A stretch of 64,000 nt of DNA from Gekko japonicus. Lineage: Eukaryota. This document shows positions 9,001-12,000 of the stretch, piece after piece (within the stretch, counting starts at the first letter, position 1; every line of letters starts with the position of its first letter). The stretch lies in the NCBI RefSeq assembly GCF_001447785.1, contig NW_015173683.1, positions 1,074,243 to 1,138,242 of the forward strand, read 5' to 3'. A program made the position numbers.

Positions 9001-12000
9001 ATGTGTAGGCAAGGGGAGCTAAACTTTCCCCCACACCCCTTATTCTGTGATGGTCAGACTTCAGCTTTCTTCTCCCATCCTGGTTGATTACTGGTTTTGG
9101 ACTCTGACCTGGAGAAACATTCTTCAGGTGCAGGAGTAGGGGCTTAATTGCAGAATATATATTCTTCATGGGTCTGCTTTGGGGACAGTCATTCACAAAA
9201 CCAAACAAGGACCCACGGTAAGTAGGAAAACCAACATACAACAAGTACCGTGCACAGATGATTATAACATATCATAAATAATTTTATATTTTTTGAAAAA
9301 TATTTTACAATAATTTCTACATATATAATAAATCATCTTAATCAAAATCCTCAAAAATAATTTCTACATCTTAATCAAAATATTTTTACAATAATTTCTA
9401 TCATCTTAATCAAAATCCTCAAAAATCATCTCCAAGAATTTCAAAAGCTATTGTACAACCTTTAATAATAGTCCTCCTCTGTTAAATAAAAGTTTCAAAA
9501 GGGAGGACTCCTTAAAGTCTCTTTATAACATGTGCTCGTGTTTTCCTCCAACAGAGGTCCAGATATCCTTCTGTTTCCAAATCTTCCTCAGGGAGTTCAA
9601 CAATAATTTTCAGCACAAGGTTGCCACATACCAAAGTTTTAATCCAAAGTTCTCTTCAATGAACGCTGCAAAAAATTTTTTTGATGAGCTACAAGCCTCC
9701 TCCAAAGTGAAAAGCACGTTCCTCATCAAAAAATTATTTATGATATGTTATAATCATCTGTGCACGGTACTTGTTGTATGTTGGGGACAGTCAAGCAGAC
9801 ATGCTTTGGGAACTCACAGGTGAAACTTGATTCCCAGGCACATGGGGTCCTGAGGCTGCAGGTGCCTGGGAATCAAGTTCCACCCAGGACCTCCCAGAGT
9901 TCATCTGCTTGGCAGTCCCTGAGGCGGACCTGGGAGCAGCACACCAAGGAGCAAGGTTTAGCTGGTTTTGTTTAAAATAGGCCTCCCACCTCCAACTTTG
10001 GTTATACCTGAGCATATTTTTCATCTTACGATCTAGTAACAGTTGTGGAGAGGAACATGACTGTTTATACTTTTACATGAAATTAGGGTGAATGAGATAC
10101 TGTGATCGAACCTTGTCATGGGTGAATAAGTCTAAGAGAAGTTTTCTTAATTCTTCTTTACCCAATTTCTTCCTGAACTTCAAAAATCCATTTATTTTCT
10201 TCTTTTTAGGTGTTTAGAGTCAGTTTCTAAAAAAAAATCCATTTTAATCAAATTGATTTTTTTCAGAAAAAGAAATGAAAGATCCTTCTTCTAAAAGATA
10301 AAAAGAGAATAAGAGGCATTAGGGGCTATGTCTAAAAAAGTGAATTTTAGGGGGAAATCCCCTCTCAATAACAACACTGTTGGTGAGTGATTTTATTTTT
10401 GCGGGTGGAGAACTATATCTCTGTCTCCTGCCATTCTCCTGACTCCCAGTGATACAAGCAAAGAATTTCTTGTTGTTGTCCCTTGCTGGTGTTGCCAGTT
10501 GTCAGTGGTAGGTGGGTGGGGAAGTCTGTGTCTCTACCTTCATTCCCCCCCCCGTCCCTGCCTGTCTGCCAGTGGGTACAAGTAATTCTTTGTCACTGCC
10601 TTACAAGTATAGCCCCAGATAATGAAACCCGTCACGCAGATAGCATCTTTGCTTGTATGGAATCAGAAAGCCACTGAGCTGGTGCAAAGAGTGGCAGAAA
10701 GTCAAAACTAATCAGGATGCTTCAGTTGGGCAGAAACATCAGCAGGCCCTTCTGGTGGAATGTTGTATTGCTTGTTCATGTGCCATATTTCGTATCTCAC
10801 AGTGTCAGGCATTTATTACTCAGTGGCTCTCTAGACCATACTTAAGACAATTGGGTTTAAAGTTTGGAGAAGTTGTTTTACCCTACAGCAGTAATATCTA
10901 GATGGCAGATCAGGACCTTGCAAGCTGTGAAAGTACAGGTTGTCAAGCTGCAAGGAATGGATATTTGAGCTGGTAACGACTTAAGGCTGAATTCAGCTTA
11001 GGGGCAAGGGCATCTGGGCAAAGGCATCTGACCCAAGTGTTATGCCAAAAATATGTTCTGGATTTCTACCTGGGGCTTTCTTTAAAGGTTTGCCAGTTTC
11101 TAGCTGCATGGTTTCTGAGTGTTTAAAAGGCAACTTGTATCTGTATGTGGTGCACTTTTGACATATTTCCTTAAGTAGCTGACTTGAAAGAAAGATTTCC
11201 AGTGTCCCATTATGCTGTCATTATCTTCCCGGGTCAATCCCGTGTACTGTTTCTGTTATTACACTGGAGAAAATTACTGATATATGGATAATAATTTCAA
11301 ATTCATTGTGTTTTTTAATGTTTGAAAACTTAAAATAAAAATGCAACAAAAGAAGGAAGAGGAGTCGTAGCTCAGTAGCAGAGCATTTGCTTTGCACACT
11401 GAAGGTCCCAAGTTCAACCCCTAGCTTCTCCGCTAAAAATAATATTGTATTAATGAGATCCTGGAGAGCCAATGCCAATCAGGGTAGACAATACTGACCT
11501 TGCCATGACTTGATATAAGACAGCTTCAAGTAATGAAGGCTATGTGTATGCTTCACAGATGAAGTTGGAAATAATATGGTAGCAATTGAGGCAATGCTTT
11601 GGATGAAATCTTCTACTTGGAACAGGATGCTTATTATGACTTGAGTTTATGATGCTGCTGAACTTGGCATAGAAGTCATATGACATCATAAAACTGGCAT
11701 GGTAGCAACTCCAAGCTTTATGGAAACAAGCCTCATTTACAGATAATGAATATAAATGAGTCCTTTTGAAATTGGACAATGGGTTCATATTAACCTTTAT
11801 TAACAATGGTTAGTAGGTGGCCTTCGCATGTCCTACTTTTAAGCGTCATATTTTCCATTTGTCAAGCAAGACTTCTCTCTGGGCATCAAGTTTTCCATAT
11901 ATATATTTGTTAGCATGATGTTTGTTAGCATGATGGCTAAGTGAACCTCCATGGCAATATGCCTCTGAATACCAGAGGCTGAAAAGGGGCAACAACAGGA

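What the first reader, a model, noticed from the sequence alone, without database searches (positions are those of the whole stretch)
9179..9793. Non-coding retroelement-like insertion with Penelope-style inverted end, tail and 13-bp TSD
Seen: a perfect 55-bp inverted repeat (9231-9285 / 9730-9784). The left arm is not terminal but extended by 39 bp (9192-9230), and the whole is flanked by ttggggacagtca on both sides, overlapping the right arm by 4 nt. It is AT-rich with no RT or transposase. Known: Penelope-like elements form partial inverted pseudo-LTRs in which one copy lacks a ~30-40 bp 3' tail, whereas DNA-transposon TIRs are symmetric and terminal. Inference: a young non-autonomous PLE-mobilised (retrozyme-like) element. 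It shows no visible similarity to the Neptune-type PLE at 25-27 kb, so it may be a separate and possibly undescribed family.
Basis: partly seen in the sequence, partly recalled or inferred. Interest (0 to 1): 0.7.

Follow-up and report, generated by a model that had tools for sequence, protein, structure and literature searches.

The report
Young Penelope-type retroelement insertion
A 593-base, recently inserted piece of DNA in a lizard-like genome has the lopsided inverted ends typical of Penelope-like retroelements; it is a well-preserved but ordinary example, and its exact family could not be identified.

Summary
There is a perfect 55-nt inverted repeat (9231-9285 / 9730-9784), a 39-nt extension on the left side only (9192-9230), and a perfect 13-nt target-site duplication (9179-9191 / 9781-9793) that overlaps the right arm by 4 nt.

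This layout matches the published insertion signature of Penelope-like elements (PLEs): a short inverted 5'-truncated copy, a 30-40 bp "tail" at one end only, and a variable TSD. I read it as two cDNAs primed on the two nicked target strands. They are a 499-nt + strand copy (9286-9784) and a 94-nt inverted copy carrying the tail (9192-9285).

New here:
- A frame stays open for 125 codons to the 3' end and on through the tail (3 of 2000 shuffles reach this). Published PLE pseudo-LTRs likewise contain the start of the ORF.
- Both nicks lie 5' of the same heptamer (background 8 of 61,937 positions).

The "retrozyme-like" label fails: no hammerhead ribozyme and no tandem monomers. Non-autonomous element or merely 5'-truncated copy, and described or undescribed family, could not be tested, because no host genome, Dfam or Repbase was available. 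No other copy lies in the window and no protein relative was found.

The main rival is a twin-primed LINE or SINE insertion. Interest is modest.

The parts
9179..9191 (.). Left copy of the 13-nt target-site duplication
   Evidence: Identical to 9781-9793 (family D7).
9192..9230 (-). One-sided 39-nt 'tail'. It is the 3'-terminal extension of the short inverted copy and is absent from the right end.
   Evidence: Read directly. Its length lies in the published 30-40 bp range for PLE tails (PMC8557442, PMC11167929, passages read).
9192..9285 (-). Short inverted copy (arm plus tail, 94 nt). I infer it is cDNA primed on the top target strand from the distal start site.
   Evidence: The assignment to a strand and a priming event is my inference.
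9231..9285 (.). Left arm of the perfect 55-nt inverted repeat
   Evidence: (I1), (the only 100% pair among the 16 found).
9214..9252 (.). Stem of 7 bp (9214-9220 with 9246-9252) whose 25-nt loop contains the tail/arm boundary at 9230/9231
   Evidence: the stem is predicted for the + strand read. z = -1.65, and 14 of 200 shuffles fold as well, so support is weak.
9286..9784 (+). Main copy, 499 nt and 5'-truncated, ending at the proximal start site without the tail
   Evidence: A frame open for 125 codons and the 9671-9688/9722-9739 hairpin (I5) both run unbroken across the arm's inner boundary at 9729/9730. This argues that the body continues into the right arm. The assignment is my inference.
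9332..9426 (.). Internal tandem repeat, 34-nt unit, 2.8 copies, 77% matches, inside the most AT-rich part. A TATA-like word lies at 9322.
9410..9823 (+). Stop-free frame of 137 codons that runs off the right end. In-frame ATGs lie at 9530, 9659 and 9740. The same frame stays open through arm plus tail when read from the left copy.
   Evidence: No relatives were found.
9730..9784 (.). Right arm of the perfect 55-nt inverted repeat. Its last 4 nt (9781-9784) are shared with the TSD, a microhomology.
9781..9793 (.). Right copy of the 13-nt target-site duplication
   Evidence: D7.
9172..9178 (.). Heptamer just outside the left TSD copy. It is the exact reverse complement of 9794-9800.
   Evidence: background 8 of 61,937 positions.
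9794..9800 (.). Heptamer just outside the right TSD copy. Each inferred nick lies immediately 5' of this same heptamer on its own strand.

Best explanation
A recent insertion made by a Penelope-like element (PLE) reverse transcriptase and GIY-YIG nuclease, using target-primed reverse transcription on both target strands.

**Proposed mechanism (inferred, not shown).**
1. The nuclease nicked the two strands 13 nt apart, each nick just 5' of the same heptamer in a small palindromic target.
2. The bottom-strand 3' end paired through 4 nt with the RNA at a proximal internal start site. It was extended into the main copy (9784 back to 9286, + sense).
3. The top-strand 3' end primed 39 nt further downstream on the RNA, at the distal start site. 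It was extended for only 94 nt (9192-9285, - sense).
4. The two cDNAs were joined head to head, and filling the stagger gave the 13-nt TSD.

The 55-nt inverted repeat is therefore the overlap of two copies of one RNA's 3' region. The 39-nt tail is the stretch between the two start sites.

**What the inserted piece is.** It is the 3' part of the unit: AT-rich untranslated or promoter-like sequence with a 34-nt tandem repeat, followed by what may be the start of the element's ORF.

**Open question.** The source RNA may have been an autonomous PLE, making this a 5'-truncated copy, which I favour at about 60:40. Or it may have been a non-autonomous relative sharing that 3' end. This is undecided.
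For: **Shown in the sequence.**
- A perfect 55-nt inverted repeat, a 39-nt one-sided extension, and a perfect 13-nt TSD with a 4-nt overlap.

**Match to published PLE features.**
- Inverted 5'-truncated copy and a 30-40 bp tail at one end only: PMC8557442, passages.
- 31-bp tail, TSDs of 8-10 bp or none, and a pLTR that contains the first 12 codons of the ORF, or 22 with the tail: PMC3846280, passages.
- The tail is the sequence between two RT start sites inside a stem-loop within the first part of the ORF. The protein cleaves and extends both strands and is predicted to be dimeric. The signature is called unique to PLEs. All from PMC11167929, abstract, passages and section 3 part 2.
- De novo PLE insertions are mostly very short 5'-truncated pieces, with variable TSDs: PMC9977147, passages.

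**Tested here.**
- A frame is open for 125 codons up to the right end. This is reached by 3 of 2000 dinucleotide shuffles, or 2 of 2000 for the 3' part alone.
- The same frame is open through all 31 codons of arm plus tail.
- The tail/arm boundary lies in the loop of a 7-bp stem.
- Perfect 7-nt inverted words flank the TSD, so both nicks have the same 3' context (background 8 of 61,937). This suits a two-fold symmetric nuclease.
- PLEs live in this genome: RT and GIY-YIG remnants lie at 25.4-27.4 kb.
Against: - **Single copy.** Only one copy is available. The defining population features cannot be seen: fixed 3' ends, variable 5' truncation and variable TSDs.
- **No hammerhead.** Canonical vertebrate PLE pseudo-LTRs typically carry a hammerhead ribozyme. 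None is found here. In the Anolis Poseidon element it sits at the ORF start, which would fall inside this copy.
- **No pseudo-LTR.** There is no direct (tandem) pseudo-LTR.
- **No partner.**
  - The element shows no likeness to the PLE remnant in the window.
  - The open frame has no relative among 1,835,955,588 representatives.
  - The word-based searches found none either: 3 candidates at near length and 191 longer, none scoring.
  - There is no Pfam match.
- **Polarity.** By the geometry, the inferred template is GU-rich at its start sites and the AC-rich strand is the cDNA. The Anolis paper describes an AC-rich stem-loop in the RNA. I could not see its figures or consensus.
- **Target composition.** The target is not AT-rich, unlike the preference reported for that element.
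- **Weak structure support.** The stem-loop is weakly supported (z = -1.65). The 3' region as a whole folds no better than shuffles (z = -0.01 and 0.17).
- **Shared 8-mer.** The likeness between tail and arm start (a shared 8-mer) is not significant (343 of 2000 shuffles).
Confidence: 0.55

Rival explanations
1. A twin-primed (5'-inverted) insertion made by a LINE, not a PLE, copying a LINE 3' end, a LINE-dependent SINE or another RNA. One target end primed at the RNA's true 3' end (9192). The other annealed internally 39 nt upstream through 4 nt of microhomology. The 55-nt overlap would be a junction duplication.
For: - The geometry is the same as in the favoured model.
- Twin priming is described as one end annealing to the RNA's 3' terminus and the other internally, with microhomologies frequent at the ends of 5'-inverted copies. 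L1 TSDs peak at 14-16 bp (PMC2912911, passages read).
- The 13-nt TSD and the 4-nt overlap fit this.
- From my own knowledge, LINEs and SINEs are commoner than PLEs in reptile genomes.
Against: - There is no poly(A), A-rich run or microsatellite at either outer end.
- There is no tRNA, 7SL or 5S-like head: Rfam at E<=10 gives 11 matches in 8900-10100, none of that kind.
- An internal priming site falling 39 nt from the end, inside the narrow 30-40 nt range typical of PLE tails, would be a coincidence.
- The first cDNA would have had to copy 55 nt beyond the second primer's site.
- No RT or LINE-like protein similarity is present.
- The PLE paper calls the tail signature unique to PLEs (PMC11167929, abstract).
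Confidence: 0.2
2. A dedicated hammerhead-bearing retrozyme, meaning a PLE-dependent non-LTR retrozyme propagating through circular RNA. This is the specific label the first reader used.
For: The only support is context. Non-LTR retrozymes are proposed to be PLE derivatives and occur in 4 of 5 sampled reptiles (bioRxiv 10.64898/2026.07.22.740005, abstract and passages read).
Against: - There is no hammerhead at Rfam gathering score in the window, nor at E<=10 in 8900-10100.
- The single exact core word with a downstream GAAA (minus strand, 9574-9591) has a 7-nt spacer that cannot form helix II.
- The nearest + strand look-alike, at 9681, has U in place of the essential C3.
- There are no head-to-tail monomers. 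The only tandem array has a 34-nt unit.
Confidence: 0.02
3. A non-autonomous cut-and-paste DNA transposon (MITE) with unequal ends, for example a Mutator-like element with a 9-nt TSD.
For: - It has an inverted repeat, small size, AT-richness and no coding relatives.
- A palindromic target context is also seen with some transposases (my own knowledge).
- If only 9 nt are counted as the TSD, the two extreme ends are both AC-rich.
Against: - The left arm does not abut the duplication. It lies 39 nt inside it.
- No TSD flanks the arms directly.
- As far as I recall, 13 nt is outside the TSD range of the eukaryotic DNA-transposon superfamilies. Trimming it to 9 nt leaves a 4-nt extension to chance.
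- The two extreme ends are not significantly alike (343 of 2000 shuffles).
Confidence: 0.04
4. Not a mobile element. Instead, filler DNA captured at a staggered double-strand break, such as a mitochondrial control-region fragment or a templated snap-back insertion.
For: - The + strand is strongly G-poor and AT-rich, with short tandem repeats (GC skew down to -0.71). This recalls vertebrate mitochondrial control regions (my own knowledge).
- There is microhomology at one junction.
Against: - A clean 13-nt duplication with symmetric nick contexts points to an endonuclease, not a random break.
- No mitochondrial tRNA or gene is detected.
- Capture does not explain a 55-nt terminal inverted duplication offset by 39 nt.
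- No mitochondrial sequence of the host was available for comparison.
Confidence: 0.05

Closest known systems
Poseidon element PAc of Anolis carolinensis (PMC11167929)
   Same: - It lives in a squamate host.
- Reverse transcription starts at two neighbouring internal sites in a stem-loop inside the first part of the ORF.
- The 30-40 nt between the two sites is the optional tail.
- Both target strands are cut and extended, and a dimer is predicted.

Here the two copy ends lie 39 nt apart. The proximal end sits in a stem's loop, and an open frame runs through both. From the in-frame ATG at 9659 the ends fall at +126 and +165, compared with +111 to +118 for the reported PAc start sites.
   Different: - There is no hammerhead at the putative ORF start.
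- The start-site region is GU-rich on the inferred template rather than AC-rich.
- The target is not AT-rich.
- No sequence comparison was possible. The consensus and the figures are in PDF and gbk supplements that I could not read.
Pen2a_Av and relatives of Adineta vaga (PMC3846280)
   Same: - The insert is bounded by inverted pseudo-LTRs.
- A 31-bp tail sits on one of them.
- TSDs are 8-10 bp.
- The pseudo-LTR includes the first 12 codons of the ORF, extended to 22 by the tail.
- Solo pseudo-LTRs, and captured non-coding inserts flanked by TSDs, also occur.
   Different: Those elements carry a full RT/EN ORF and direct pseudo-LTRs as well. Here only a 499-nt copy plus a 94-nt inverted copy is present, with a 13-nt TSD. 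The host is very distant.
Non-autonomous PLE derivatives: Chlamys-N and MRC1 (PMC8557442, PMC9977147), and animal non-LTR retrozymes (bioRxiv 10.64898/2026.07.22.740005)
   Same: They are short, have no recognisable protein, and are presumably mobilised in trans by a PLE through a shared 3' end.
   Different: - Chlamys non-autonomous elements make pseudo-LTRs and head-to-tail arrays.
- Retrozymes are tandem monomers with type I hammerheads.

Neither feature is present here.
5'-inverted L1 insertions made by twin priming (PMC2912911)
   Same: Two primers act on one RNA. There is microhomology at the internally primed end, a TSD in the low teens, and a head-to-head junction.
   Different: There is no poly(A). 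The inverted part here duplicates the 3' region rather than carrying more 5' sequence. The offset of 39 nt matches the PLE tail length.

Membership tests
Penelope-like element (insertion signature) | An inverted, 5'-truncated copy adjoining the main copy, giving inverted repeats at the ends of the insert | tested here: met
   55-nt arms, 100% complementary, at 9231-9285 and 9730-9784. The feature is as described in PMC8557442 (passages).
Penelope-like element (insertion signature) | A 30-40 bp extension (tail) present at one end of the insert only | tested here: met
   The 39 nt at 9192-9230 lie between the left TSD copy and the left arm, with none on the right.
Penelope-like element (insertion signature) | Target-site duplication, variable in length among copies | tested here: inconclusive
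   A perfect 13-nt duplication is present. Variability cannot be judged from one copy.
Penelope-like element (insertion signature) | The 3' end of the unit contains the start of the ORF, which the tail extends | tested here: inconclusive
   - A frame is open for 125 codons to the 3' end (3 of 2000 shuffles).
- It stays open through 31 of 31 codons of arm plus tail.
- In-frame ATGs lie at 9530, 9659 and 9740.
- Nothing shows that this frame is a PLE ORF.
Penelope-like element (canonical Penelope/Poseidon and Neptune clades) | Hammerhead ribozyme motif in the pseudo-LTR | tested here: not met
   - Rfam gathering search of the window: 1 match, a tRNA-like hit.
- Rfam at E<=10 on 8900-10100: 11 matches, none a hammerhead.
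- The motif scan found no core with a helix II.
- No positive control for minimal PLE hammerheads was available: the old PLE at 23500-29500 also gave none.
Penelope-like element | Direct partial-tandem pseudo-LTR | tested here: not met
   No long direct repeat of the element exists, only a 34-nt internal array. This is not expected in heavily 5'-truncated copies.
Penelope-like element | An RT plus GIY-YIG ORF in the element, or in a partner that shares its 3' end | not testable with these tools
   - No host genome or repeat library was available.
- The in-window PLE remnant (25444-27370, minus strand) shows no likeness.
- The protein searches are negative, although reptile PLE proteins are in that collection.
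Non-LTR retrozyme | Type I hammerhead ribozyme in each monomer | tested here: not met
Non-LTR retrozyme | Head-to-tail tandem monomers, with circular RNA | tested here: not met
   There is no tandem array other than the 34-nt unit in 2.8 copies. Circular RNA cannot be tested here.
MITE / cut-and-paste DNA transposon | Terminal inverted repeats that abut a fixed-length TSD on both sides | tested here: not met
   The left arm lies 39 nt inside the duplication, and no duplication flanks the arms directly. That 13 nt is outside the usual superfamily ranges is recalled, not tested.
LINE / SINE retroposition | Poly(A) or microsatellite 3' tail. For SINEs, also a pol III-type head. | tested here: not met
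   No such tail is present at either end. No tRNA, 7SL or 5S match lies in 8900-10100 at E<=10.

The most novel reading that the evidence does not exclude
The element represents a recently active, hammerhead-less PLE lineage in a squamate. It would be either a clade not yet recorded there, such as the Naiad type (so far reported in vertebrates only from fish, PMC8557442), or a dedicated non-autonomous parasite of such a lineage. Its dimeric nuclease would cut symmetric sites 13 nt apart, each 5' of the same heptamer. This single insertion would then preserve both priming events of a two-strand TPRT reaction in vivo.
Probability: 0.15. Interest if true: 0.55.

Novelty: new member of a known kind. 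Interest (0 to 1): 0.3.

Why it matters
If the reading is right, this is a clean, undecayed genomic record of the PLE insertion mechanism inferred in vitro in 2024. It preserves two internal start sites 39 nt apart, priming on both target strands, microhomology at one of them, and a symmetric pair of nicks.

The case is useful as a worked example and for repeat annotation, because pipelines tend to call such inserts MITEs or unknown. It does not change what is known about PLEs.

The absence of a hammerhead from an apparently young vertebrate PLE-type insert is the one point a specialist might follow up.

Tried and rejected
- **Other copies in the window.**
  - blastn with word 9 on 9100-9900 found only the self-match, the inverted repeat and the flank palindrome. 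The best other hit had E = 0.15.
  - nhmmer --max and blastn with word 7 against the window, with the element masked, gave best E = 0.78 and 0.30.
- **Hammerhead ribozymes.**
  - Rfam at gathering score over the whole window gave 1 match, which was tRNA-like.
  - Rfam at E<=10 on 8900-10100 gave 11 matches, none a hammerhead. The best hits are miRNA-precursor models on the neighbouring palindrome.
  - Rfam at E<=10 on 23500-29500 also gave 11 matches, none a hammerhead.
  - A regex for the core found 1 place in 9100-9900 and 10 in the whole window.
- **Protein identity of the 137-codon frame.**
  - Pfam gave nothing.
  - The word-based protein search gave nothing at near length (3 candidates) or at longer length (191 candidates).
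  - The exhaustive search of 1,835,955,588 representatives gave 0 hits.
  - The ESM Atlas gave no usable hit, with low recognition of 1108.
- **Pfam on window ORFs.** I scanned 86 of the 107 stop-to-stop ORFs of at least 90 codons. The 21 lying in or next to the N runs were dropped. Only 3 sub-threshold matches came back, one of them RVT_1 at 27080-27370.
- **RNA structure of the 3' region.** It folds no better than shuffles, except for a weak stem on the + strand read.
- **Likeness between the tail and the start of the arm.** This was not significant.
- **Extension of the neighbouring palindrome into the left flank.** This was not significant (179 of 1000 shuffles).
- **Supplement of PMC11167929.** The xlsx holds only sequencing-run lists, with no element sequence.
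- **Readings considered and rejected.** DIRS and Crypton make no TSD. Helitron makes no TSD and has different ends. LTR elements give 4-6 bp TSDs and direct LTRs. All of these are from my own knowledge.
- **Collections not used.** The bacterial and archaeal genome collection, and the phage, plasmid and E. coli collections, cannot hold a reptile repeat.
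Full report
**What is there**

- Arms 9231-9285 and 9730-9784 are 55 nt, 100% complementary, and 444 nt apart.
- The 13-mer TTGGGGACAGTCA occurs at 9179-9191 and again at 9781-9793. The right copy shares its first 4 nt with the end of the right arm.
- The 39 nt at 9192-9230 separate the left arm from the left 13-mer and have no counterpart on the right.

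This is more than chance. It is the only perfect pair among the 16 inverted pairs of at least 35 nt found within 5 kb in the two N-free stretches scanned. Isolated 13-mer repeats at 100-1000 nt do occur elsewhere in the window (17 collapsed pairs, most of them inside real repeats). What matters here is the placement, flush with one arm and 39 nt outside the other.

The element 9192-9784 has 593 nt and a GC of 0.309, against 0.424 for the window. Its left third (9286-9439) has a GC of 0.175 and holds a 34-nt tandem repeat in 2.8 copies.

**Host and surroundings**

The window is not human. A GIY-YIG fragment of a decayed retroelement at 25447-25785 (minus strand) finds 8 longer proteins. The best is an unnamed reverse-transcriptase protein at 77% identity. 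It is followed by proteins of the lizards Zootoca vivipara and Podarcis muralis, and one of a turtle.

RT-like pieces lie at 26461-27370 on the same strand. PLEs therefore exist in this genome, but this one is old and full of stops. It shows no likeness to the element under study.

The five N runs were left untouched.

**Orientation and mechanism (inferred)**

In target-primed reverse transcription, the first bases made sit next to the target. Read outward-in, both ends of the insert start with the AC-rich strand. Both ends are therefore cDNA starts, and the template RNA ended GU-rich. The insert is thus two copies of one RNA's 3' region joined head to head, with their 3' ends facing outward.

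Two features run unbroken across the inner edge of the right arm (9729/9730):
- a stop-free frame of 137 codons (9410-9823);
- an 18-nt hairpin stem (9671-9688 / 9722-9739).

I therefore assign the 444-nt body to the right-hand copy. This gives:
- a main copy, 9286-9784 on the + strand, with no tail;
- a short inverted copy, 9192-9285 on the - strand, with the tail.

The 4 nt shared between the TSD and the right arm fit annealing of the bottom-strand primer to the RNA at the proximal start site.

**Fit to published PLE biology**

- Craig et al. 2021 (PMC8557442, passages read) describe an inverted 5'-truncated copy next to the main copy, and a 30-40 bp tail often present at one end only.
- Arkhipova et al. 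2013 (PMC3846280, passages read) give a 31-bp tail and TSDs of 8, 9 and 10 bp or none. They note that the pseudo-LTR contains the first 12 codons of the ORF, or 22 with the tail.
- The 2024 in vitro study of the Anolis Poseidon element (PMC11167929; abstract, passages and section 3 part 2 read) reports four things:
  - Reverse transcription starts at two neighbouring internal sites in a stem-loop 111-118 nt into the ORF.
  - The tail is the stretch between those two sites.
  - The protein cuts and extends both target strands and is predicted to be a dimer.
  - The signature is unique to PLEs.
- De novo PLE insertions in Chlamydomonas have a median length of 128 bp because of 5' truncation (PMC9977147, passages read).

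The present insert matches on several points:
- The tail is 39 nt.
- It has the inverted partial copy and a TSD.
- The proximal end lies in the loop of a 7-bp stem (9214-9220 / 9246-9252).

First, the + sense frame is open for 125 codons up to the right end. Only 3 of 2000 dinucleotide-preserving shuffles reach that, and 2 of 2000 for the 3' part alone. Read from the left copy, the same frame stays open through all 31 codons of arm plus tail. In-frame ATGs lie at 9530, 9659 and 9740. From 9659 the two ends fall at +126 and +165. This is what a pseudo-LTR carrying the start of the element's ORF would look like, so 'non-coding' is too strong.

Second, the 13-nt duplication is flanked by perfect 7-nt inverted words (9172-9178 and 9794-9800). 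Each inferred nick therefore lies directly 5' of the same heptamer on its own strand. Such a configuration occurs at 8 of 61,937 positions in the window. I noticed this after the fact, so its weight is moderate, but it suits a two-fold symmetric nuclease.

**What speaks against, or could not be shown**

- There is no hammerhead ribozyme.
  - Rfam gives no hammerhead at gathering score in the window or at E<=10 in 8900-10100.
  - The only exact core word followed by GAAA has a 7-nt spacer that cannot form helix II.
  - The nearest + strand look-alike, at 9681, has U for the essential C3.
  - Canonical vertebrate PLE clades typically have the motif in the pseudo-LTR, and in PAc it sits at the ORF start.
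  - I had no positive control for minimal PLE hammerheads, because the old PLE at 23500-29500 gave none either.
- There is no direct pseudo-LTR.
- The open frame has no relative.
  - Pfam finds no match at E<=10.
  - The word-based searches found none: 3 near-length and 191 longer candidates, none scoring.
  - The exhaustive search found 0 of 1,835,955,588 representatives.
  - The Atlas gave no usable hit.
  - Reptile PLE proteins are in that collection, so a close partner with this N-terminus is probably not there. TE ORFs are, however, poorly represented in gene sets.
- The inferred template is GU-rich at the start sites, whereas the Anolis paper speaks of an AC-rich stem-loop in the RNA. 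Its figures S1 and S2, its consensus file (PDF) and its gbk file could not be read here, and the one readable supplement holds only run lists. This polarity question stays open.
- The target is not AT-rich.
- RNA folding of the 3' region is unremarkable: z = 0.17 and -0.01, and -1.65 for the + strand read.
- The 8-mer shared by the tail and the arm start is not significant (343 of 2000 shuffles).

**Rivals**

- **Twin-primed LINE or SINE insertion.** This gives the same geometry, and the 13-nt TSD and end microhomology fit it (PMC2912911, passages read). Against it: there is no poly(A) or simple-repeat tail and no pol III head, and the offset happens to be a typical PLE tail length. I give it 0.2.
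- **Cut-and-paste MITE.** This is contradicted by the non-terminal left arm and by the lack of a TSD next to the arms (0.04).
- **Captured filler or mitochondrial DNA.** This is suggested only by base composition (0.05).
- **True retrozyme.** This fails its defining feature (0.02).

**Comparison and novelty**

The insert works like a PLE insertion. Its membership in the PLE signature is met on the inverted copy and the tail. It is inconclusive on TSD variability and the ORF start. It is not met on the hammerhead and the direct pseudo-LTR. It is untestable on the partner and on the copy population.

Non-autonomous PLE derivatives are already known: Chlamys-N and MRC1, captured inserts in A. vaga, and animal retrozymes (bioRxiv 10.64898/2026.07.22.740005, abstract and passages read). 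I therefore rate it a new member of a known kind, with modest interest.

The boldest reading left open is a young, hammerhead-less PLE lineage, or a parasite of one, in a squamate, with symmetric two-strand cutting preserved in a single insertion.

**Left unchecked**

- Copy number and the ends of copies in the host genome.
- Dfam and Repbase.
- The orthologous empty site.
- RNA reads.

No eukaryotic genome collection was available. The bacterial, phage, plasmid and E. coli collections cannot bear on a reptile repeat and were not used. Supplements of the bioRxiv preprint were closed as well.

Noticed in passing
window 9784-9919 (and perhaps 9171-9191 with 9910-9930): The insertion sits at the outer edge of an imperfect palindrome. 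Its arms are 61 nt and 77% complementary, with a 14-nt spacer. It draws weak sub-threshold Rfam matches to miRNA-precursor models; the best is mir-3116 at 32.2 bits against a gathering score of 65. It is probably an old hairpin or MITE-like repeat. The extension into the left flank was not significant (179 of 1000 shuffles)..
   Followed up: partly
window 25444-27370, minus strand: Decayed Penelope-like element. It has an RT piece with a YIDD-type motif at 26461-26652, a weak RVT_1 match at 27080-27370 (E = 0.0011, below the cut-off), and a GIY-YIG-type C-terminal piece at 25447-25785. The latter's relatives include an unnamed RT protein (77% identity) and lacertid lizard proteins. Many stops, no hammerhead at E<=10..
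   Followed up: partly
window 11361-11432, + strand: A tRNA-like stretch scores 33.1 bits (gathering score 29) in Rfam but is not called by ARAGORN. It is followed by non-tRNA sequence. It looks like the head of a tRNA-derived SINE. From memory it resembles squamate SINE heads, which I did not test..
   Followed up: no
window 57570-58198; 53862-54171 with 58148-58459: A 315-nt unit repeated twice in tandem at 96% identity. About 310 nt are also present in inverted orientation, roughly 4 kb apart, at 89-95% identity. Nature unknown..
   Followed up: no
window 38107-39350: Long direct repeat: an exact 473-nt stretch recurs 607 nt downstream, with further exact stretches at 620-634 nt spacing. 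Tandem Repeats Finder does not report it because the period exceeds 500. Possibly a tandem duplication or a pseudo-LTR-like arrangement..
   Followed up: no
window 13480-13784, 16626-16754, 28347-28435, 36944-37070: Several further short hairpin-type inverted repeats (76-88% complementary) of the kind left by MITEs. The one at 28.35-28.43 kb draws weak miRNA-precursor matches..
   Followed up: no
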